DNA of 18,212 nucleotides. Origin: a virus. Lineage: Duplodnaviria > Heunggongvirae > Uroviricota > Caudoviricetes. The position numbers were made by a program, and so were the translations under genes. The stretch lies in IMG/VR virus record IMGVR_UViG_2617271087_000009. One strand, 5' to 3'. Positions 1 through 10,624 of this stretch are shown here, piece by piece. Position 1 is the first letter of the stretch, and each line of letters starts with the position of its first letter. The notes under the pieces are model-generated. The model did not search any database and had not been told where the DNA came from. It saw nothing but the letters and a program-made list of their open reading frames with translations.

Positions 1-1014
1 TTACTCTACTGTGGACACTGTGTGGACACTCTCGGCTTCAGTACCACCTCTTAGCGGATTAAGAGAAATGGCGTCCTGAAGGTACTCTGGCGCAAAATGA
101 GCGTAAACCATAGTTTGCTCAATCCGCGTGTGACCTAGTATCCGTTGTAGCGTGATAATACTTCCTCCATTAATCATGAAATGAGTGGCAAAGCTGTGCC
201 TTAGTGCATGTGTGGCTTGCCCCGTTGGCAAATCCGGTTTTATTGCTTTCATTGTTCGTCTGAAGCGAGGGTAATCAGCATCAGGGAATAAAAAACCTCG
301 TTTGTTATCCGCGATCATTTTGGCAACAGCCTCTGAGATCGGGACGGTGCGTGGTTTGTTTGTTTTCGTTTTAACAAACGTGACGCGGTTATGGATGATA
401 TTTTCTGCTTTCAAACGAGCTGCTTCTCCCCAACGTGCTCCTGTACTCAGGCAAAGAATCGCAATCTTTTTGTTGTCGCCGTCAAGTGCTGCAAGCAGTA
501 AGGCAATTTCTTCCTGTGTGAGATAGCCTGTTTCTGGTTTTTCCTCCTTAAGCCTCTTTGTCCCTCTGATAGGGTGCTCACCAAAGAATAACTCCGCTTC
601 AATCAGGGCTGTAAACATGCCGCTAATACATGTTAAATCACGATTGATACTCGAAGGTTTAATACCCTGACTTCTTCGGGTGGCGCAGTACTGGCTGATA
701 AGGGATTTCGTGATTTGAAATGCGCATGGGTCATTCGTTATTTTTGTGAAGATTTCAATTTTTCCAAGATTAGATTTCCCATGCTCTTCGTGTTTACCCT
801 TTAAATCCCACCAGATCTGTGTCAGTTCCGACAGACGTCGTTTGTCTGTTGGTTTTGATAGCCATTCTTTATTGTGGTGGTTGTACAACGTGTATTTTTC
901 GAAAGCGACAGCTTCGCTTTTCTTATCAAACTTCCTACGGATGCGTTTTCCGTTACGTCCAGTAGGGCGGATGTCCACTTCATATCGACCATCATCGAGT
1001 TTTTTGATTGCCAT
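1..1014 (-). CDS. int: Tyrosine integrase, P2 Int-like (337 aa)
   Basis: Minus-strand ORF 1..1092; internal Met at 1012-1014 gives 337 aa, the P2 Int length, beginning MAIKKLDDGRYEV. C-terminal HxxR...Y recombinase-type residues (ATHALRHSFATH ... MVYAH). Lies next to the divergent repressor/cox pair. Confidence 0.9.
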   Translation of the reverse strand: MAIKKLDDGRYEVDIRPTGRNGKRIRRKFDKKSEAVAFEKYTLYNHHNKEWLSKPTDKRRLSELTQIWWDLKGKHEEHGKSNLGKIEIFTKITNDPCAFQITKSLISQYCATRRSQGIKPSSINRDLTCISGMFTALIEAELFFGEHPIRGTKRLKEEKPETGYLTQEEIALLLAALDGDNKKIAILCLSTGARWGEAARLKAENIIHNRVTFVKTKTNKPRTVPISEAVAKMIADNKRGFLFPDADYPRFRRTMKAIKPDLPTGQATHALRHSFATHFMINGGSIITLQRILGHTRIEQTMVYAHFAPEYLQDAISLNPLRGGTEAESVHTVSTVE

Positions 1015-1069
1015 CAGAAAACCCTCCGAGTGGTACTTTTTTTTTGCTACTACTAATCGCTTTTTTCGT

Positions 1070-1090
1070 GGTGGCTGAAATTTAGCCACC
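1070..1090. other. Perfect 7-bp stem / 7-nt loop hairpin (GGTGGCT-GAAATTT-AGCCACC) in the C-int intergenic region
   Basis: Inverted repeat read directly. No U-tract follows on either strand, so not a canonical intrinsic terminator; possibly a protein-binding or int-regulatory element. Confidence 0.3.
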
Positions 1091-1130
1091 AATAGTAGGC
1101 ACTTGTGATGAATATATTCACGATAAATTG

Positions 1131-3319: not shown

Positions 3320-3597
3320 GTATTCGTATTGAAATTGGCGAGCGTTATGTCGTCACAAATGACCGTTTTCAGTTCATTTTGCAGGAGAGAAAGACCGCTG
3401 AAACCGGGAAGAATGCCGGTAAAGAGTGGCTGGATGTTGTCGGCTATTACCCCAAATTAAACCAGCTCGTTTCCGGTCTGATCCATCACGATATTTTGAG
3501 CGGTAACGCTGTCTCTTTTGAGGCGCTGAGCTCTCAGGTTGAGCAGCTCGGTCAGCAGTGTCTGACTGCGTTTCTCTGTGCGGGGAAATCTAAATGA
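3316..3597 (+). CDS. Small early hypothetical protein (P2 orf83 position)
   Basis: 93-aa ORF; ATG at 3316 overlaps the upstream stop (ATGA); GGAGA RBS at 3306-3310. Confidence 0.6.
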   Translation: MSIRIEIGERYVVTNDRFQFILQERKTAETGKNAGKEWLDVVGYYPKLNQLVSGLIHHDILSGNAVSFEALSSQVEQLGQQCLTAFLCAGKSK

Positions 3598-4602
3598 TAG
3601 TTGATACCCGCTGCCGAGCTGAAAGCTCTATCAATATTATTTCTGTTTCTGGCGGAAAGGATAGCCTTGCTCAATGGCTTGTTGGTATTGAAAGCGGTGT
3701 GCATTTTTTTGCCGGTTTTTGCAGACACCGGGCATGAGCATCCGCAGACAATGGAGTATCTCGATTATCTGGAGAACCGACTCGGGCCGGTTAAACGGGT
3801 TAAAGCTGACTTCTCCCGACAGATTGAAGGTAAGCGCAAGTTTATTGCTGAGAAATGGCCTGTTTCTCTGGTTGAAGAGTGCGGAATGTCTCCGGGGGAA
3901 GCGGCAGAGCGCATCAATTGTGCGCTGGAAATTCTCAAGCCTACTGGTATCCCATTTCTTGATTTGTGCATGTGGAAAGGGCGATTTCCTTCCACTAAAG
4001 CCAGATTTTGCACTTTTGACCTTAAACATGAGCCAGTACGTACTCAGGTCGTGTTACCTGCGCTTAATGAGTTTGATGAGGTAATTAGCTGGCAGGGGAT
4101 TCGCGCTCAGGAGTCTCCTGCGCGCGCGGGTCTGCCTGCCTGGGAAGAGGATGCGGACAATACGCCCGGGCTCCATGTATACCGTCCTATTCTGAACTGG
4201 ACGCATGAGGAGGTATTTGCATTTGCAAGACGTCATGGAATTAAACCTAATCCGTTATACCAGCAGGGATGCAGTCGTGTCGGTTGTATGCCCTGCATCC
4301 ACGCCAGAAAGTCTGAATTAGCTGAAATTTTTAGTCGCTGGCCGGAAGAGGTTAAGCGTGTTGCGGAATGGGAGCGACTTGTCGCCGCATGCTCCAGACG
4401 CGGAAATTCTACTTTCTTCCCGTCAACTCATGACCCGCGTCGTGCGGAACGCCGCATTGATATTATTACTGTCGATGCTTACGGAATTGAGTCTTATCGT
4501 GACTGGGCGATGACCACGCGTGGCGGGGCACAGTTTGATTTGCTGGCTTCGGTGAATGATAAGTCAGTTTGCAGTAGTGTCTATGCCGGTGTATGTGAAT
4601 GA
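3594..4602 (+). pseudogene. PAPS reductase / DndC-like PP-loop protein with Cys cluster, interrupted by a +1 frameshift in a T7 run (3704-3710); possibly a sequencing error
   Basis: Frame 0 from ATG 3594 (overlapping the orf83 stop) encodes MIVDTRCRAESSINIISVSGGKDSLAQWLVGIESGVHFF and stops at 3735-3737. Frame +1 continues FLPVFADTGHEHPQTMEY... to 4602. SGGKDS followed about 25 residues later by DTG...P.T is the PAPS-reductase family signature, but here it is split across frames. Removing one T from the T7 run restores one ORF of about 335 aa. C-terminal GCSRVGCMPC cysteine cluster. Confidence 0.7.
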
Positions 4603-6884
4603 GTCATTCTTTCCAGGAGCAATACACCTGCGTACCTCCGTCAGCATTTGCTGCAGGCACCGGTAAGGCGTTTACCGGTGCTTATGCATGGAACGCGCCA
4701 CGCGAGGCCGTCGGGCGCGAAAGACCCCTTACACGTGACGAGATGCGTCAGGTGCAAGGTGTTTTATCCACGATTAACCGCCTGCCTTACTTTTTGCGCT
4801 CGCTGTTTACTTCACGCTATGACTACATCCGGCGCAATAAAAGCCCGGTGCACGGGTTTTATTTCCTCACATCTACTTTTCAGCGTCGTTTATGGCCGCG
4901 CATTGAGCGCGTGAATCAGCGCCATGAAATGAACACCGACGCGTCGTTGCTATTTCTGGCAGAGCGTGACCACTATGCGCGCCTGCCTGGAATGAATGAC
5001 AAGGAGCTGAAAAAGTTTGCCGCCCGTATCTCATCGCAGCTTTTCATGATGTATGAGGAACTCTGCGATGCATGGGTTGATGCACATGGCGAAAAAGAAT
5101 CGCTGTTTACGGATGAGGCGCAGACTCACCTGTATGGTCATGTTGCTGGCGCTGCACGTGCTTTCAATATTTCCCCGCTCTACTGGAAAAAATACCGTAA
5201 AGGACAGATAACCACGAGGCAGGCATATTCTGCCATTGCCCGTCTGTTTAACGATGAGTGGTGGACTCATCAGCTTAAAGGCCAGCGTATGCGCTGGCAT
5301 GAGGCGTTACTGATTGCTGTCGGGGAGGTCAATAAAGACCGTTCTCCTTATGCCAGTAAACATGCCATTCGTGATGTGCGTGCGCGCCGCCAGGCAAATC
5401 TGGAGTTTCTTAAATCGTGTGACCTTGAAAACAGGGAAACCGGCGAACGCATCGACCTTATCAGTAAGGTGATGGGCAGTATTTCTAATCCTGAAATTCG
5501 CCGGATGGAGCTGATGAACACCATTGCCGGTATTGAGCGTTACGCCGCCGCAGAGGGTGATGTGGGGATGTTTATCACGCTGACCGCGCCGTCAAAGTAT
5601 CACCCGACACGTCAGGTCGGAAAAGGCGAAAGTAAAACCGTTCAGCTTAATCACGGCTGGAACGATGAGGCATTTAATCCAAAGGATGCGCAGCGTTATC
5701 TCTGCCGTATCTGGAGCCTGATGCGCACGGCATTCAAGGATAATGATTTACAGGTCTACGGTTTGCGAGTCGTCGAGCCACACCACGACGGAACGCCGCA
5801 CTGGCATATGATGCTTTTTTGTAATCCACGCCAGCGTAACCAGATTATTGAAATCATGCGTCGCTACGCGCTCAAAGAGGATGGCGACGAAAGAGGAGCT
5901 GCGCGAAACCGTTTTCAGGCAAAACACCTTAACCGGGGCGGTGCTGCAGGGTATATCGCGAAATACATCTCAAAAAACATCGATGGCTATGCACTGGATG
6001 GTCAGCTCGATAACGATACCGGCAGGCCGCTGAAAGACACTGCCGCGGCTGTTACCGCATGGGCGTCAACGTGGCGCATTCCGCAATTTAAAACGGTTGG
6101 CCTGCCGACAATGGGGGCTTACCGTGAACTACGCAAATTGCCTCGCGGCGTCAGCATTGCTGATGAGTTTGACGAGCGCGTCGAGGCTGCACGCGCCGCT
6201 GCAGACAGTGGTGATTTTGCGTTGTATATCAGCGCGCAGGGCGGGGCAAATGTCCCGCGCGATTGTCAGACTGTCAGGGTCGCCCGTAGCCCGTCGGATG
6301 ACGTTAACGAGTACGAGGAAGAAGTCGAGAGAGTGGTCGGCATTTACGCGCCGCATCTCGGCGCGCGTCATATTCATATCACCAGAACGACGGACTGGCG
6401 CATTGTTCCGAAAGTGCCGGTCGTTGAGCCTTTGACTTTAAAAAGCGGCATCGCCGCGCCTCGGAGTCCTGTCAATAACTGTGGAAAGCTCACCGGTGGT
6501 GATACTTCGTTACCGGCTCCCACACCTTCTGAGCACGCCGCAGCAGTGCTTAATCTGGTAGATGACGGTGTTATCGAATGGAATGACCCGGAGGTCGTGA
6601 GGGCGCTCAGAGGTGCATTAAAACACGGCCTGAGAAGACCAAACCGTCAGCAAAGAAACGGAAGCCCGTTAAAACCGCATGAAATAGCGCCATCGGCCAG
6701 ACTGACCCGGTCTGAACGATTGCAAATCACCCGTATCCGCGTTGACCTTGCTCAGAACGGTATCAGGCCGCAGCGATGGGAGCTTGAGGCGCTGGCGCGT
6801 GGCGCGACCGTAAATTATGACGGGAAAAAATTCACGTATCCGGTCGCTGATGAGTGGTCGGGATTCTGGCATCAATTTGAGTAA
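4599..6884 (+). CDS. A: Replication initiation protein A (rolling-circle HUH endonuclease), 761 aa
   Basis: 761 aa equals P2 gpA length; HUH-like motif (GTPHWHMMLF) and tyrosine-containing active-site region (GYIAKYISKNIDGY); start overlaps the upstream stop (ATGA). Confidence 0.9.
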   Translation: MSHSFQEQYTCVPPSAFAAGTGKAFTGAYAWNAPREAVGRERPLTRDEMRQVQGVLSTINRLPYFLRSLFTSRYDYIRRNKSPVHGFYFLTSTFQRRLWPRIERVNQRHEMNTDASLLFLAERDHYARLPGMNDKELKKFAARISSQLFMMYEELCDAWVDAHGEKESLFTDEAQTHLYGHVAGAARAFNISPLYWKKYRKGQITTRQAYSAIARLFNDEWWTHQLKGQRMRWHEALLIAVGEVNKDRSPYASKHAIRDVRARRQANLEFLKSCDLENRETGERIDLISKVMGSISNPEIRRMELMNTIAGIERYAAAEGDVGMFITLTAPSKYHPTRQVGKGESKTVQLNHGWNDEAFNPKDAQRYLCRIWSLMRTAFKDNDLQVYGLRVVEPHHDGTPHWHMMLFCNPRQRNQIIEIMRRYALKEDGDERGAARNRFQAKHLNRGGAAGYIAKYISKNIDGYALDGQLDNDTGRPLKDTAAAVTAWASTWRIPQFKTVGLPTMGAYRELRKLPRGVSIADEFDERVEAARAAADSGDFALYISAQGGANVPRDCQTVRVARSPSDDVNEYEEEVERVVGIYAPHLGARHIHITRTTDWRIVPKVPVVEPLTLKSGIAAPRSPVNNCGKLTGGDTSLPAPTPSEHAAAVLNLVDDGVIEWNDPEVVRALRGALKHGLRRPNRQQRNGSPLKPHEIAPSARLTRSERLQITRIRVDLAQNGIRPQRWELEALARGATVNYDGKKFTYPVADEWSGFWHQFE
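6456..6475 (+). other. Candidate origin / A-protein nick region inside the A coding sequence
   Basis: GCGCCTCGGAGTCCTGTCAA matches my recollection of the P2 ori sequence, which is known to lie within the 3' part of gene A. Recall-based, not computed. Confidence 0.4.
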
Positions 6885-6973
6885 GGATCTCATCTATACA
6901 GTATAAGTAGTTTTGACTGTAATTGATTGTTTTTTATATGGTTGCATGCATTAAATCTACGTCAATATCATTA

Positions 6974-6982
6974 TGTTATAAT
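6974..6982 (+). promoter_or_regulatory. Extended -10 promoter element (TGtTATAAT) upstream of the cargo operon
   Basis: TG-n-TATAAT read directly at 6974-6982, about 29 nt upstream of the ATG at 7011 with GGAGA RBS at 7001-7005; AT-rich context; no good -35. Confidence 0.45.
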
Positions 6983-7010
6983 GCATTACTTAAAAATGTT
7001 GGAGATAAAA

Positions 7011-7202
7011 ATGTTAAAGCCTGCAGATGTTGTTTGTTTGAAAAGCGGTGGATTTAAAATGACTGTATCTGACTCTACTGAAACTCATGCTAAATGTATT
7101 TGGCATGATAAAGAAGGAGTTTTGCACGAGGAGTCATTCTCCATTGATTTACTGGAAATAGCAGAGAGTAAAAGTGGTATGCTTTGTCGTCCACGTAAGT
7201 GA
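7011..7202 (+). CDS. Small protein (63 aa), YodC/DUF2158-like, first gene of the cargo island
   Basis: ATG at 7011 with GGAGA RBS. The pattern V.LKSGG.KMTV ... C.W.D ... F recalls the DUF2158 (YodC) small-protein family, from memory only. AT-rich codon usage unlike the flanking phage genes. Confidence 0.6.
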   Translation: MLKPADVVCLKSGGFKMTVSDSTETHAKCIWHDKEGVLHEESFSIDLLEIAESKSGMLCRPRK

Positions 7203-7229
7203 ATCATAATAAAATTCACGGGGGAAAGT

Positions 7230-7910
7230 ATGAAACAATACAGCGAATTAGAAAACAATGTTAAGAGATTCATTGTTGAGCATGAAAAAGGGATTTCTAT
7301 TGATGATATTCATCATAAGTTCCGGATGAAGGATGGTCAGAATCGCAAGATGGCAGATTATCTTATTGATAATAAAAAGATAATTTTGGAGATGAAAAGT
7401 CTTTTTTCTGACAGGGTCAAGAATGTCAATGATAAACTGAATGAGTTGGTTAAAACTGATAATTGGCTTGCAAAAAACTGGCATGGTGCTATTCATTTAG
7501 AAGAGTTGATAAAAAGACACCCAGACTCAAAGCGATTTAGAAATGATATAATGAACTTTGCTTATGAAAATATTAAAACAAAGATAGTTAAGGAAGCTAA
7601 TAAGCAAATAAATGCAACAAAGGATGTTTTGGATTTAAATGACTCGATTGGCGGGTTGATTTTGTTAAATGATAATGTCTTTTCACATGAGTCTAATTAT
7701 TTGTCAGATGAAATATTATATTTGCTAGGCACAAAGAGATATTCGAGTGTTGAGTTTGTGGTTTATATTGCAAAATTGATTGATAAACAGGTTGATGTTT
7801 GTGTGCTACTTGACAGTCAATCTAAAAATAAAAATTATATTGAATGGTATATGAATAATGTTTTTTTATTGAACTGGGCGTCTTTTAATAAATATGCAAT
7901 AAAGATGTAG
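7230..7910 (+). CDS. Hypothetical protein (226 aa), cargo gene of unknown function
   Basis: ATG at 7230 with GGGGGAAAG RBS, 27 nt after the upstream stop, so probably co-transcribed. K/N/E-rich, AT-rich; no motif I recognise, no predicted transmembrane segment. Confidence 0.7.
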   Translation: MKQYSELENNVKRFIVEHEKGISIDDIHHKFRMKDGQNRKMADYLIDNKKIILEMKSLFSDRVKNVNDKLNELVKTDNWLAKNWHGAIHLEELIKRHPDSKRFRNDIMNFAYENIKTKIVKEANKQINATKDVLDLNDSIGGLILLNDNVFSHESNYLSDEILYLLGTKRYSSVEFVVYIAKLIDKQVDVCVLLDSQSKNKNYIEWYMNNVFLLNWASFNKYAIKM

Positions 7911-8163
7911 TGGTGTGGATGGATATGAAATGAGTCAACCAAGATGCACCTTGGTCAGTAATCTCATGTGAGATACCACATATAACACCAAAAGTGTCAG
8001 GTTGATGGCCATTGTTCACCGTTTACAGCAGATTATGGTCAACGAAAATCTGACGCCTGACGAGCTGGTCGGGTGTGCCGAAATAGTCTGGGATAATTAC
8101 GGGCGGTTTAACTATATCGGTCAGTCCAGAGTTGCGCCACCACCACGCAGACGATAGAGAACG

Positions 8164-8197
8164 CCGCCAGTCGTGAAACTTGTTTTCAGGCTGGCGG
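8164..8197 (-). terminator. Possible weak intrinsic terminator for the 313-aa cargo gene
   Basis: CCGCCAG ... CTGGCGG 7-bp GC-rich stem with a long structured loop, about 33 nt downstream of the minus-strand stop, followed on the minus strand by CGUUCUCUAUCG (only moderately U-rich). Confidence 0.3.
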
Positions 8198-8229
8198 AGT
8201 TGAACAACGAGCGAAGTGAGGCGTTAGCA

Positions 8230-9171
8230 TTAAGTTAATTTTAATGAATGGTACTCTATCGAGCTGATTGTAGATGCGATATATTTACGATCATTTACAG
8301 AGAGTATTGCCGCTAGTAGACGACATACCAGAGCCTGCATTTGTAGCAATATATCGCTACCATATTGACAATCATTGATACTAGAGAAACCAAGCGGTTG
8401 CCCATTAAAAATGGCTTCATGAAAATTATCATTGCGTATAACTGAAACATTACATTCATCTGTTGCCCATGACGGGATTTTTACACCGTAATTTTCGCAC
8501 ATCCAATATACTCTATTTTGATGAGATGGTTTTTTCTCTTTAATGACTTTATCCCTTTCATCCCATGCTATAGCAAAACAGCAATCAAGAGCCATATAAA
8601 GATACTGGAATTTCTCAAAGGAAAGGTATAGTGGGTTATGTGACAGGAATAGGGAGTGTATCACCGCAGCTATTCTTTTAATGGAGCGATCATCTTTTTG
8701 TTTGTCTTTTATATAGTTAAGTGCTAGCTCTATTACTTCTTTTTCAGAGCATCCAACGAGAATAAAGTCGGTTAACTTAGTGGGCTTGATAGTGGTTGCA
8801 TCAAGAAAACCAGCGTCAGTGGTTGTCAATCTTATACCCTTGAAAAAAGAGAGGCACCACACAACAAAGTTGAGAGTTTCTAACGAGGATGTGTTTTTTA
8901 ATTTTAGTGTGTGCGTTTTGGGCATGCCGAATACTCGGTAACTATAAGGCATTGTGCATGTGTCACCATTAAGGTTATATACCTTTCGATTCCCAGGGTA
9001 TATCCAACCATTAACAACGTTTTTATCATTGTTAATACGTTCCACGTTCTCAATAAGACCGGGTAAAGTACGCAAAGAAAATTGTTCAGTCTCAATGTTA
9101 ACTTCTACTGGATAGTATCCAAACTCCGAAATAATCTCATTTGGTTGCTGTTCGTCAACTTCACCTTGCAT
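8230..9171 (-). CDS. Hypothetical protein (313 aa), cargo gene of unknown function
   Basis: ATG (reverse complement of 9169-9171) preceded by GGAGAAAG RBS; convergent with the 7011-7910 operon; AT-rich. It contains an R-x4-H motif (RNDNFH, residues about 246-251) reminiscent of HEPN Rx4-6H, which is weak evidence. Confidence 0.7.
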   Translation of the reverse strand: MQGEVDEQQPNEIISEFGYYPVEVNIETEQFSLRTLPGLIENVERINNDKNVVNGWIYPGNRKVYNLNGDTCTMPYSYRVFGMPKTHTLKLKNTSSLETLNFVVWCLSFFKGIRLTTTDAGFLDATTIKPTKLTDFILVGCSEKEVIELALNYIKDKQKDDRSIKRIAAVIHSLFLSHNPLYLSFEKFQYLYMALDCCFAIAWDERDKVIKEKKPSHQNRVYWMCENYGVKIPSWATDECNVSVIRNDNFHEAIFNGQPLGFSSINDCQYGSDILLQMQALVCRLLAAILSVNDRKYIASTISSIEYHSLKLT

Positions 9172-9589: not shown

Positions 9590-10624
9590 TCAGCCGTTGT
9601 CAGTGTCAAGTGAGTAGTTTTTAAAGCGGATGACCTCCTGACCGAGCCAGTCGTTTATCTCGCGGATCCTGTCCTGTAACGGGATAAGCTCATTGCGGAC
9701 AAAGACCTTTGCCACTTTCTCAATATCACCCAGCGACCCGACGTTCTCCGGCTTGCCACCCATCAACTGAAAGGGGATGCGGTGCGCGTCCAGCAGGTCA
9801 GCGGCGCTGGCTTTTTTGATATTAAAAAAATCGTCCTTCGTCGCCACTTCACTGAGGGGGATAATTTTAATGCCGTCGGCTTTCCCCTGTGGGGCATAGA
9901 GAAACAGATTTTTAAAGTTATTGCGGCCTTTCGACTTCACCATGTTTTCGCGAAGCATTTCGATATCGTTGCGATCCTGCACGGCATCGGTGACGTACAT
10001 GATGTATCCAGCATGTGCGCCATTTTCGTAATACTTGCGGCGGAACAGCGTGGCCGACTCATTCAGCCAGGCAGAGTTAAGGGCGCTGAGATATTCCGGC
10101 AGGCCGTACAGCTCCTGATTAATATCCGGCTCCAGCAGGTGAAACACGGAGCCGGACGCGAAGGCTGTCGGCTCGTTGAAGGACGGCACCCACCAGTAAA
10201 CATCCTCCTCCACGCCACGGCGGGTATATTTTGCCGGTGAGGTTTCCAGCCTGATAACCTTACCGGTGGTGCTGTAACGCTTTTCCAGAAACGCATTACC
10301 GAACACCAGAAAATCCAGCACAAAGCGGCTGAAATCCTGCTGGGAAAGCCACGGGTGCGGAATAAACGTTGAAGCCAGAATATTACGTTTGACGTAAATC
10401 GGTGAGCTGTGATGTACGGCAGCACGCAGGCTTTTTGCCAGACCGGTAAAGCTGACCGGTGGCTCATACCATCTGCCGTTACTGATGCACTCGACGTAAT
10501 CCAGAATGTCACGGCGGTCGAGTACCGGCACCGGCTCACCAAAGGTGAATGCCTCCATTTTCGGGGCGCTGGCGGTCATTGTTTTCACCGCAGGTTGCGG
10601 TGTTTTCCCTTTTTTCTTGCTCAT
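9590..10624 (-). CDS. Q: Portal protein Q (344 aa)
   Basis: 344 aa equals P2 gpQ length; start ATG overlaps the P stop (ATGA); adjacent to terminase. Confidence 0.9.
   Translation of the reverse strand: MSKKKGKTPQPAVKTMTASAPKMEAFTFGEPVPVLDRRDILDYVECISNGRWYEPPVSFTGLAKSLRAAVHHSSPIYVKRNILASTFIPHPWLSQQDFSRFVLDFLVFGNAFLEKRYSTTGKVIRLETSPAKYTRRGVEEDVYWWVPSFNEPTAFASGSVFHLLEPDINQELYGLPEYLSALNSAWLNESATLFRRKYYENGAHAGYIMYVTDAVQDRNDIEMLRENMVKSKGRNNFKNLFLYAPQGKADGIKIIPLSEVATKDDFFNIKKASAADLLDAHRIPFQLMGGKPENVGSLGDIEKVAKVFVRNELIPLQDRIREINDWLGQEVIRFKNYSLDTDNG

What the first reader, a model, noticed from the sequence alone, without database searches (positions are those of the whole stretch)
7011..7910. Two-gene operon: DUF2158-like small protein plus 226-aa unknown protein
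Seen: an extended -10 (TGtTATAAT, 6974-6982), then a 63-aa ORF, then 27 nt later a 226-aa ORF with a strong RBS, both AT-rich and on the same strand, so probably one transcript. The small protein has the LKSGG.KMTV ... C.W.D pattern I associate with the YodC/DUF2158 family, whose function is unknown. The 226-aa partner is hydrophilic and K/E/N-rich with no motif I recognise. Inference: a small-protein-plus-effector pair in a defence hotspot could be a sensor/effector or toxin/antitoxin-like module.
Basis: partly seen in the sequence, partly recalled or inferred. Interest (0 to 1): 0.7.

Follow-up and report, generated by a model that had tools for sequence, protein, structure and literature searches.

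The report
Prophage nuclease gene with small partner
A P2-type prophage carries, in its known anti-virus cargo slot, a two-gene cassette whose larger protein is predicted to be a DNA-cutting enzyme of an unnamed family and whose small partner is a tiny barrel protein; the pair was already listed in a published survey but has never been tested.

Summary
ORFs of 63 aa (7011-7202) and 226 aa (7230-7910) lie 27 nt apart on the + strand, each with a Shine-Dalgarno sequence, behind a TGnTATAAT extended -10. They are AT-rich (30-38% GC against about 53% in the flanks). The small protein is a true DUF2158/YodC member by Pfam.

The window is a P2-like prophage, and the pair sits in the gpA-to-portal defence hotspot. 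The same locus is GenBank AM157369 (P2-EC67 ORF73/ORF226). Rousset et al. 2022 list it as untested system #63, "DUF2158".

In P2-like phages the two genes always travel together. Homologues at 64-67% identity lack DUF2158, which argues against an obligate toxin-antitoxin pair.

The best reading is a nuclease-based anti-phage cassette with an accessory regulator. No experiment supports it. Interest is moderate.

The parts
6974..6982 (+). Extended -10 promoter element TGTTATAAT. It would allow expression in the lysogen independently of the repressed early operon.
   Evidence: Read directly. TGnTATAnT is conserved in Citrobacter (TGATATAAT) and a metagenomic relative (TGATATACT) while the flanks diverge. 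There is no -35 match, so the scan did not list it. No transcript data.
7001..7004 (+). Shine-Dalgarno GGAG of the DUF2158 gene
   Evidence: GTTGGAGA invariant in four aligned loci.
7011..7202 (+). 63-aa DUF2158/YodC-family protein. Predicted five-stranded SH3/KOW-like beta-barrel (residues 7-50) with a disordered basic C-terminal tail.
7203..7229 (+). 27-nt spacer with the RBS GGGGGA (7220-7225) and no terminator. The two genes are probably one transcript.
   Evidence: The spacer is 41-42 nt in the Citrobacter and metagenome relatives, with TTCACnGnGG conserved.
7230..7910 (+). 226-aa predicted PD-(D/E)xK nuclease of an unnamed family. Proposed catalytic residues are D43, E54 and K56, with conserved D25, Q126 and N147.
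7970..8229 (+). Conserved P2-backbone segment (contains a 51-aa ORF, 8002-8157). It separates the slot holding the pair from a second cargo slot. It marks the cassette's right border and is not part of the cassette.
   Evidence: Only this segment matches P2, Wphi, Yersinia P2-like phages and 374 E. coli genomes. GC is 0.49. Wphi layout.

Best explanation
This is a self-contained, horizontally acquired two-gene cargo cassette in the gpA-portal hotspot of a P2-like prophage. It is expressed in the lysogen from its own extended -10 promoter.

The 226-aa product is a metal-dependent PD-(D/E)xK endonuclease, with active site D43 / E54-x-K56 helped by D25, Q126 and N147. It acts as the effector that cuts the DNA of superinfecting or competing phages. 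It would do so either directly, like a solitary restriction-type enzyme, or after activation, as in abortive infection.

The 63-aa DUF2158 protein is an SH3/KOW-like barrel, a fold that usually binds nucleic acid or a partner protein. It is a lineage-specific accessory that tunes, restrains or targets the nuclease.

Shown here:
- the gene structure;
- DUF2158 family membership;
- strict co-inheritance of the two genes in P2-like phages;
- purifying selection on both genes;
- the hotspot location;
- the conserved D...ExK signature and a nuclease-like predicted fold.

Inferred, not shown: nuclease activity, any anti-phage effect, co-transcription, and any physical or functional link between the two proteins.
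For: Location:
- The pair lies between gpA and portal Q of a P2-like prophage. Cloned cargo from this hotspot has repeatedly given phage resistance (PMC9122126; PMC13586616).

Foreign origin and promoter:
- GC is 0.30-0.38 against 0.53 in the flanks.
- The extended -10 is conserved.

Nuclease prediction:
- The AF2 model is confident.
- D43 and E54-x-K56 sit on the adjacent strands 44-46 and 51-57. They are invariant in 144-145 of 149 remote representatives, together with Q126 and N147.
- Five remote members give weak hits to PF18742, REase_DpnII-MboI.
- Four long relatives fuse the domain to Mrr_cat.

Context of relatives:
- A 41%-identical homologue sits directly after a prophage cI-type repressor and next to a DUF4238 gene, which is a validated defence family. 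A BamHI restriction-modification system lies nearby.
- A Sulfuritalea homologue lies 49 nt downstream of a DUF4238 gene on the same strand.
- Others are in an island with GIY-YIG, DUF4145, Mrr_cat and SLATT, next to YobI-ATPase, or on plasmids.

Pairing of the two genes:
- 27 of 27 E. coli genomes carry both, as do 26 of 26 contigs read.
- The pair is kept together in Citrobacter and a metagenome with equal dN (0.13) for both genes.
- The pair is the sole hotspot cargo in L017.

Precedent: YodC-domain proteins accompany UG2 defence reverse transcriptases (PMC9226505).
Against: - There is no experiment of any kind. The pair was not among the systems cloned by Rousset et al..
- It does not appear in the held supplements of DefensePredictor.
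- PADLOC models do not recognise either protein or 36 relatives.
- Foldseek against the PDB gave nothing significant, best E 0.11.
- Hotspot cargo is not always defensive. Partition systems and toxins also occur there.
- The remote 340-aa class mostly sits among housekeeping genes.
- No basis for telling self from non-self DNA is visible: there is no methyltransferase and no recognisable modified-base reader.
- DUF2158 is dispensable in close homologues, so its coupling to the nuclease may be loose.
Confidence: 0.5

Rival explanations
1. Type II toxin-antitoxin or addiction module. The nuclease is a toxin that is constantly neutralised by the small, labile DUF2158 antitoxin. The pair would stabilise the prophage, or fire when infection stops antitoxin synthesis.
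Against: Homologues at 64% identity (Pantoea plasmids) and 67% identity (L016) have no DUF2158 ORF upstream. More remote members are solo or follow unrelated genes. DUF2158 has an SH3/KOW-like fold with no HTH, RHH or AbrB DNA-binding module of classical antitoxins. One genome keeps DUF2158 with a shortened 203-aa nuclease gene (L026), whereas antitoxin loss has not been seen either way.
Confidence: 0.13
2. Two functionally independent cargo genes that are only physically linked. DUF2158 would be a small stress or regulatory protein, like chromosomal YodC, or a counter-defence factor. The nuclease would work on its own.
For: The nuclease family is overwhelmingly found without DUF2158. The DUF2158 family includes solitary chromosomal genes such as RpoS-dependent YodC (PMC5437024, listed). 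The sampled P2 lineage is shallow: most copies are at least 97% identical.
Against: Linkage persists to about 75% amino-acid identity in three lineages, with a short conserved spacer and no second promoter or terminator. dN is equal for both genes. No P2-like locus was seen with only one of the two.
Confidence: 0.17
3. A selfish or DNA-metabolism nuclease rather than immunity. It would be a free-standing homing-type endonuclease that spreads its own cassette into the slot next to gpA, or a recombination/replication helper for the phage.
For: It is an AT-rich insertion precisely between a conserved gene and a conserved 260-bp backbone segment. That position is occupied by orf91/orf92 in Wphi. 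The PD-(D/E)xK fold also serves homing and recombination enzymes (established knowledge). It is on the same strand as, and just downstream of, the replication gene A.
Against: It has its own conserved promoter. Relatives occur in very different settings: plasmids, a cI-adjacent prophage position, and chromosomal islands with other nuclease or defence genes. That fits mobile defence cargo better than a site-specific homing element. No repeats or target-site signatures were noticed.
Confidence: 0.1

Closest known systems
P2 old and tin (and other cargo of the P2 gpA-Q hotspot, e.g. Rst_DUF4238, Rst_3HP, DprA-PRTase; Rousset et al. 2022, PMC9122126)
   Same: Same genomic position in the same phage family. 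It is AT-rich cargo, probably expressed from the prophage, and in old's case nuclease-based exclusion of other phages. Homologues of the 226-aa protein are twice found adjacent to DUF4238 genes.
   Different: There is no sequence relationship: no OLD ATPase/TOPRIM and no DUF4238 domain. Its proteins are absent from the paper's tables of cloned systems (zero occurrences in Table S2). It has never been tested. In that paper it appears only as catalogue entry #63, 'DUF2158', with 67 occurrences.
Type II/IIS restriction endonuclease catalytic domains (BsmI by structure; REase_DpnII-MboI, PF18742, by weak sequence signal)
   Same: Predicted PD-(D/E)xK core with an Asp before the second strand and Glu-x-Lys on the third. 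Five remote family members give sub-threshold PF18742 hits over the motif region.
YodC/COG5475-domain proteins next to UG2 (DRT2-type) defence reverse transcriptases (Mestre et al. 2022, PMC9226505)
   Same: A small YodC/DUF2158 domain is encoded beside a defence-type effector, and the authors regard it as accessory or regulatory.
   Different: There the partner is a reverse transcriptase and the YodC domain is part of larger proteins, some with WYL. Here it is a free 63-aa protein beside a nuclease. No function is known in either case.
CdiA-CT nuclease toxins with CdiI immunity proteins, and NucC (CBASS/type III CRISPR effector nuclease)
   Different: There is no sequence similarity. There is no delivery domain, no cyclic-nucleotide signalling genes nearby, and the partner is dispensable in close homologues.

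Membership tests
DUF2158 / YodC (Pfam PF09926) | Match to the family HMM above the curated gathering score | tested here: met
   33.1 bits against a cut-off of 22.3, E 4.7e-8, residues 6-46 on profile positions 4-48 of 50. The Citrobacter and metagenome partners are also PF09926.
PD-(D/E)xK nuclease superfamily | Alpha-beta-beta-beta-alpha-beta core fold | tested here: inconclusive
PD-(D/E)xK nuclease superfamily | Conserved acidic residue plus (D/E)xK on adjacent strands | tested here: met
   D43 precedes strand 44-46, and E54-M-K56 lies in strand 51-57. Among 149 remote representatives, D43 is kept in 144 of 144 with a residue at that column, E54 in 145 of 146, and K56 in 145 of 146. These residues are invariant in alignments A2 and A3.
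PD-(D/E)xK nuclease superfamily | Divalent-metal-dependent phosphodiester cleavage | not testable with these tools
   Needs purified protein and substrate assays.
Type II toxin-antitoxin module | The toxin gene is always accompanied by its cognate antitoxin gene | tested here: not met
   The Pantoea plasmid homologue (64% identity) has no DUF2158-like ORF in the 500 bp upstream. L016 (67% identity) has none either. Remote homologues are solo.
Type II toxin-antitoxin module | Toxicity of the large protein that is neutralised by the small one | not testable with these tools
   Requires expression experiments.
Catalogued anti-phage systems (PADLOC-DB 2.0.0, including the Rousset and Vassallo systems) | HMM match of the component proteins | tested here: not met
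   No hit at E up to 0.1 for either protein or for ORF313. Among 36 family members there were only two stray hits, at E 0.003-0.005.
Restriction-modification (type II) | A cognate DNA methyltransferase encoded beside the endonuclease | tested here: not met
   The ORFs between gpA and Q (63, 226, 51, 313 and 71 aa) have no methyltransferase domain.
P2 gpA-Q hotspot cargo (as defined in Rousset et al. 2022) | Variable gene set located between gpA and gpQ of a P2-like element | tested here: met
   gpA is 4599-6884 and the portal is 9590-10624. The same proteins are listed in Table S5A/B of PMC9122126.

The most novel reading that the evidence does not exclude
The pair is a new anti-phage system. 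A previously unnamed PD-(D/E)xK nuclease family (about 350 clusters at 50% identity across Proteobacteria and beyond) would be the effector. The DUF2158/YodC barrel would be a portable sensor or regulator that can plug into different effectors: this nuclease here, and UG2 reverse transcriptases elsewhere. That would give the first function for a widespread 'domain of unknown function', including E. coli YodC.
Probability: 0.3. Interest if true: 0.65.

Novelty: new variant of a known kind. Interest (0 to 1): 0.42.

Why it matters
If the cassette protects against phages, it would add a compact defence module of about 0.9 kb carried by P2-like prophages of E. coli, Salmonella and Citrobacter.

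It would also put a name and an active site on a nuclease family that currently has no Pfam, NCBIfam or PADLOC model. That family is found on plasmids and prophages and in chromosomal islands.

It would give a testable role to DUF2158/YodC, a small protein family with no known function that also accompanies UG2 defence reverse transcriptases.

If the cassette does nothing against phages, it is simply one more uncharacterised piece of hotspot cargo.

Tried and rejected
Family and structure searches that found nothing useful:
- Pfam, NCBIfam and PADLOC scans of the 226-aa protein found nothing meaningful.
- A profile search of PDB sequences gave only chance-level hits to shikimate kinase, E 0.005.
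- Foldseek against the PDB gave no significant match. The afdb50 library was unavailable.
- The word-indexed protein search found only close relatives of either protein, and again when given the broad alignment.

Collection scans that found nothing:
- tblastn of both proteins against PLSDB plasmids gave no match, although Pantoea draft-genome plasmid-like contigs carry a homologue.
- The GTDB species-representative scan with close relatives found none.
- Broad alignments were too divergent for the locus finder.
- No Rfam family matched anywhere in the window.

Ideas considered and dropped:
- That the locus is the validated three-hypothetical-protein system (3HP) of Rousset et al. Its proteins are absent from their Table S2, and PADLOC gives no hit.
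- That ORF313 is a third component. It occurs in 93 genomes, often without the pair, and the pair occurs without it.
- An operator-like inverted repeat around the -10 (6946-6953 / 6979-6986). It is not conserved in Citrobacter, so it was not pursued.
- BLAST between the two DUF4238 neighbours of homologues found no similarity. They are independent, divergent DUF4238 members.

Literature: searches for the accession numbers, P2-EC67 and ORF226 found nothing relevant. Two papers mention DUF2158 in their main text, neither functionally.

Full report
**1. What the window is.** The 18.2-kb window is the left half of an integrated P2-like (Peduovirus) prophage. It carries these genes:
- an integrase (1-1092, minus strand);
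- a C-type repressor, Cox and B;
- small early genes;
- replication protein gpA (4599-6884; PF05840, E 4e-124);
- the portal Q (9590-10624, minus strand), terminase P and capsid genes.

It is 99.9% identical over the finding to prophages in E. coli strains such as 4/0 and JJ2434, and 99.5% identical to the isolated phage vB_EcoM-720R8. The finding lies in the gpA-to-Q interval. Rousset et al. 2022 showed this interval to be a hotspot of anti-phage cargo in P2-like phages. It is the position of old and tin in P2 itself (PMC9122126; confirmed on a larger data set in PMC13586616).

**2. Check of the observation.**
- The ORFs are a 63-aa ORF at 7011-7202 and a 226-aa ORF at 7230-7910, separated by a 27-nt spacer.
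- GGAG lies 6 nt before the first ATG and GGGGGA about 5 nt before the second. TGTTATAAT is at 6974-6982.
- The two-hexamer promoter scan did not list this site because there is no -35 match, which is what an extended -10 promoter can do without.
- In an alignment with a Citrobacter prophage and a metagenomic P2-like contig, the TGnTATAnT element, a T-rich upstream block and the RBS are kept while the surrounding bases change. Those relatives are about 75% identical to the window at protein level.
- The reading frame upstream of ATG 7011 is broken by indels in that alignment. The 63-aa form is therefore the real one, not the 73-aa 'ORF73' of GenBank or the 91-aa TTG form.
- No terminator-like site lies between the genes, and none was found on the + strand after 7910, so the 3' end of the transcript is undefined.
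- The two genes have 38% and 30% G+C, against 53% for gpA and Q.
- Both are under purifying selection. dN/dS is 0.19-0.33 for the small gene and 0.08-0.13 for the large gene.
- The small protein is a DUF2158/YodC member above Pfam's own threshold.

**3. The cassette is already on record, but untested.**
- The same DNA (97.5% identity) is GenBank AM157369, 'Bacteriophage P2-EC67 proviral ORF226 and ORF313', with ORF73, ORF226 and ORF313 annotated as hypothetical proteins.
- In Rousset et al. 2022, Table S5A lists this arrangement with the very accession numbers found in strain 4/0 (WP_001547483, WP_023136039, WP_032179103).
- Table S5B lists the two proteins together as genetic system number 63, named 'DUF2158', with 67 occurrences.
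- Neither protein sequence occurs in their tables of cloned systems, whether validated or not.
- I found no later paper that mentions the accessions, and nothing in the held supplements of DefensePredictor. The novel systems that the 2026 P2/P4 study reports came from P4 loci, according to its abstract.

**4. The 226-aa protein is a predicted nuclease.** Word-indexed searching found only 26 close clusters (at least 64% identity), all in Enterobacterales and all 'hypothetical'.

An exhaustive profile search of 1.84 billion cluster representatives found 348 relatives at E up to 1e-3, of which 74 were at E up to 1e-10. They come in three size classes:
- about 220-260 aa;
- about 335 aa;
- a few proteins of 600-740 aa, in which the domain is internal.

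Aligning the best 149 to the profile shows a striking set of fixed positions:
- D43, 144 of 144;
- E54, 145 of 146;
- K56, 145 of 146;
- Q126, 142 of 142;
- N147, 136 of 139;
- near-fixed D25, A42, D61, G86, P98, A123, T130 and G141.

The AlphaFold2 model (pLDDT 82, pTM 0.78) places D43 just before strand 44-46 and E54-x-K56 inside the neighbouring strand 51-57. This is the classic arrangement of the PD-(D/E)xK nuclease active site (established knowledge of that superfamily).

- XisH and NucC;
- three CdiA-CT nuclease toxins;
- Hna, N.BspD6I, NucS, NgoMIV and AF1548;
- bunyavirus cap-snatching endonucleases.

Two further hints support the call. Five remote members give sub-threshold hits to REase_DpnII-MboI over the motif region, and four long members carry an additional Mrr_cat domain.

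I rate 'PD-(D/E)xK nuclease' at roughly 0.75-0.8. It is a member of a family that has not been named.

**5. The small protein.** AlphaFold2 was run on a shallow alignment. It still gave pLDDT 81 and predicts a five-stranded barrel (residues 7-50) followed by a disordered, basic tail.

- Tudor and PWWP domains;
- HspQ;
- a small barrel within the Hpy99I restriction enzyme;
- the RNA-binding protein OapB.

Such barrels typically bind nucleic acids or a partner protein. That is a statement about the fold class, not a test of this protein. The only defence-related precedent I found is that YodC (COG5475) domains are encoded beside UG2 defence reverse transcriptases, sometimes fused to WYL (PMC9226505).

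**6. Is it one unit?** Within P2-like phages, yes.
- All 27 complete E. coli genomes with either gene have both.
- All 26 contigs read for the small protein have the large gene 27 nt downstream. One of them is called at 203 aa.
- Citrobacter freundii prophages and a metagenomic P2-like contig keep the pair at about 75% identity, with the same dN (0.13) for both genes.
- In that metagenomic contig the pair is the only cargo between gpA and the portal.

ORF313 (8230-9171, minus strand) is a separate module.
- It occurs in 93 E. coli genomes, often with other cargo in place of the pair.
- The pair occurs with a different third gene or with none.
- A 260-bp segment (about 7970-8229, 49% G+C) lies between the pair and ORF313. 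It is shared with P2, Wphi and hundreds of prophages, so the hotspot is in effect two slots.

**7. Is the small gene needed?** Outside the P2 lineage, no.
- The 64%-identical homologue on Pantoea ananatis plasmid-type contigs (next to an IncFII-type repA and a PLD-family gene, PF13091 PLDc_2) has 500 bp upstream with no DUF2158-like ORF.
- A 67%-identical homologue in another contig has none either.
- More remote members are solitary or follow unrelated small genes.

This is the main argument against an obligate toxin-antitoxin pair. It favours seeing DUF2158 as an add-on.

**8. Context of relatives.** Several contexts fit mobile defence cargo:
- A 41%-identical homologue sits 33 nt after a prophage cI-type repressor (HTH plus S24 peptidase). 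It is back to back with a DUF4238 gene, beside the serine recombinase, with a BamHI restriction-modification system nearby. DUF4238 is one of the P2-hotspot genes that Rousset et al. validated against T7.
- A Sulfuritalea homologue lies 49 nt downstream of another, unrelated DUF4238 gene on the same strand.
- Others lie in an island with GIY-YIG, DUF4145, Mrr_cat and SLATT genes, beside a YobI-type ATPase and plasmid genes, or beside HNH and SOS-polymerase genes.

Against this, most neighbours of seven betaproteobacterial and other 340-aa-class members are ordinary housekeeping genes. Guilt by association is therefore moderate, not strong.

**9. Most likely mechanism.** I commit to a prophage-expressed nuclease cassette that restricts other phages. 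The 226-aa enzyme is the effector and DUF2158 is an accessory that restrains, activates or targets it (confidence about 0.5).
- Shown: the gene structure, the family membership of the small protein, the co-inheritance, the selection, the hotspot location, and the conserved catalytic-type signature on a nuclease-like predicted fold.
- Inferred: catalysis, anti-phage effect, co-transcription, protein-protein coupling, and how self DNA is spared. No methyltransferase and no recognisable modified-base reader is present. The possibilities therefore include a type IV-like preference for modified phage DNA, activation only on infection, or structure-specific cleavage.

The rivals are:
- a toxin-antitoxin or addiction module, 0.13;
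- two independent genes that are merely linked, 0.17;
- a selfish homing-type or phage DNA-metabolism nuclease, 0.10.

**10. Comparison with known systems, and novelty.**
- By position and likely role it is analogous to P2 old/tin and to the Rousset hotspot systems, but it is homologous to none of them.
- By fold it belongs with restriction-type PD-(D/E)xK enzymes.
- The DUF2158 partner parallels the YodC-domain genes of UG2 systems.
- It fails membership of every catalogued defence family I could test (PADLOC), and it fails the obligate-pairing criterion of toxin-antitoxin systems.

I class it as a new variant of a known kind: nuclease-based prophage cargo with a small accessory protein. The protein families involved are uncharacterised.

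**11. Verdict.** The setting is a well-known hotspot, and the pair is already listed in a published supplement. What this analysis adds is the nuclease assignment with named catalytic residues, the breadth of the family, the fold of DUF2158, the evidence that DUF2158 is dispensable elsewhere, and the separation from ORF313. Without any functional data this is a reasonable but not exceptional candidate for experimental testing. Interest is about 0.4.

Noticed in passing
window 8230-9171 (minus strand): ORF313 is a 313-aa protein with no Pfam, NCBIfam or PADLOC hit (phrog_5937). It fills the second cargo slot, next to cos and Q. It is present in 93 complete E. coli genomes in several alleles (75-100% identity). 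It occurs with or without the DUF2158 pair, for example with DUF3850 plus IS2, or with a DinI-like gene. It is an independent, uncharacterised hotspot gene and a defence candidate in its own right.
   Followed up: partly
window 7970-8229 (51-aa ORF at 8002-8157, + strand): This 260-bp segment has normal G+C (0.49) and is conserved in P2, Wphi, Yersinia P2-like phages and 374 E. coli genomes. It splits the gpA-Q hotspot into two slots and may serve as a recombination anchor for cassette swapping. PGAP names its small ORF 'meiotically up-regulated 80 protein', which looks like a spurious name transfer.
   Followed up: partly
window 3594-4602 (+ strand): A PAPS-reductase-family gene (PF01507, E 1e-31) sits in the early operon just upstream of gpA. 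In the near-identical prophage of strain 4/0 it is annotated as frameshifted. Here an ATG ORF (3594-3737) and a TTG ORF (3601-4602) lie in different frames, which suggests the same 5' frameshift.
   Followed up: no
L009 5001-6539 and L044 5016-6990: Remote homologues of the 226-aa nuclease lie immediately beside DUF4238 genes in two unrelated genomes. In one they are convergent, 33 nt apart. In the other they are tandem, 49 nt apart. DUF4238 is a validated anti-T7 defence family. The two DUF4238 proteins share no BLAST-level similarity with each other. This may be a recurrent association.
   Followed up: partly
L004-L007 (Pantoea ananatis contigs), gene at about 6001-6723: A 240-aa homologue (64% identity) is carried solo on IncFII-repA-type conjugative plasmid contigs. 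It lies between a PLD-family gene (PF13091 PLDc_2) and variable cargo that includes a Macro-domain gene. PLSDB tblastn found no plasmid copy, so these plasmids seem to be missing from that collection.
   Followed up: no
P0052, P0070 and related proteins (600-740 aa): A few distant relatives embed the nuclease-like domain (their residues about 350-510) between an N-terminal Mrr_cat restriction-endonuclease domain and a C-terminal SEC-C metal-binding motif. This is a two-nuclease-domain architecture of unknown function.
   Followed up: no
L026 2626-3237 (E. coli CP030214.1): In one genome the nuclease gene downstream of an intact DUF2158 gene is called at only 203 aa instead of 226. This may be an example of decay of the effector.
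   Followed up: no
window 6946-6953 and 6979-6986: A perfect 8-nt inverted repeat, ATGCATTA / TAATGCAT, brackets and overlaps the -10 element, and the downstream arm is itself palindromic. It could be an operator, but it is not conserved in the Citrobacter or metagenomic relatives.
   Followed up: partly
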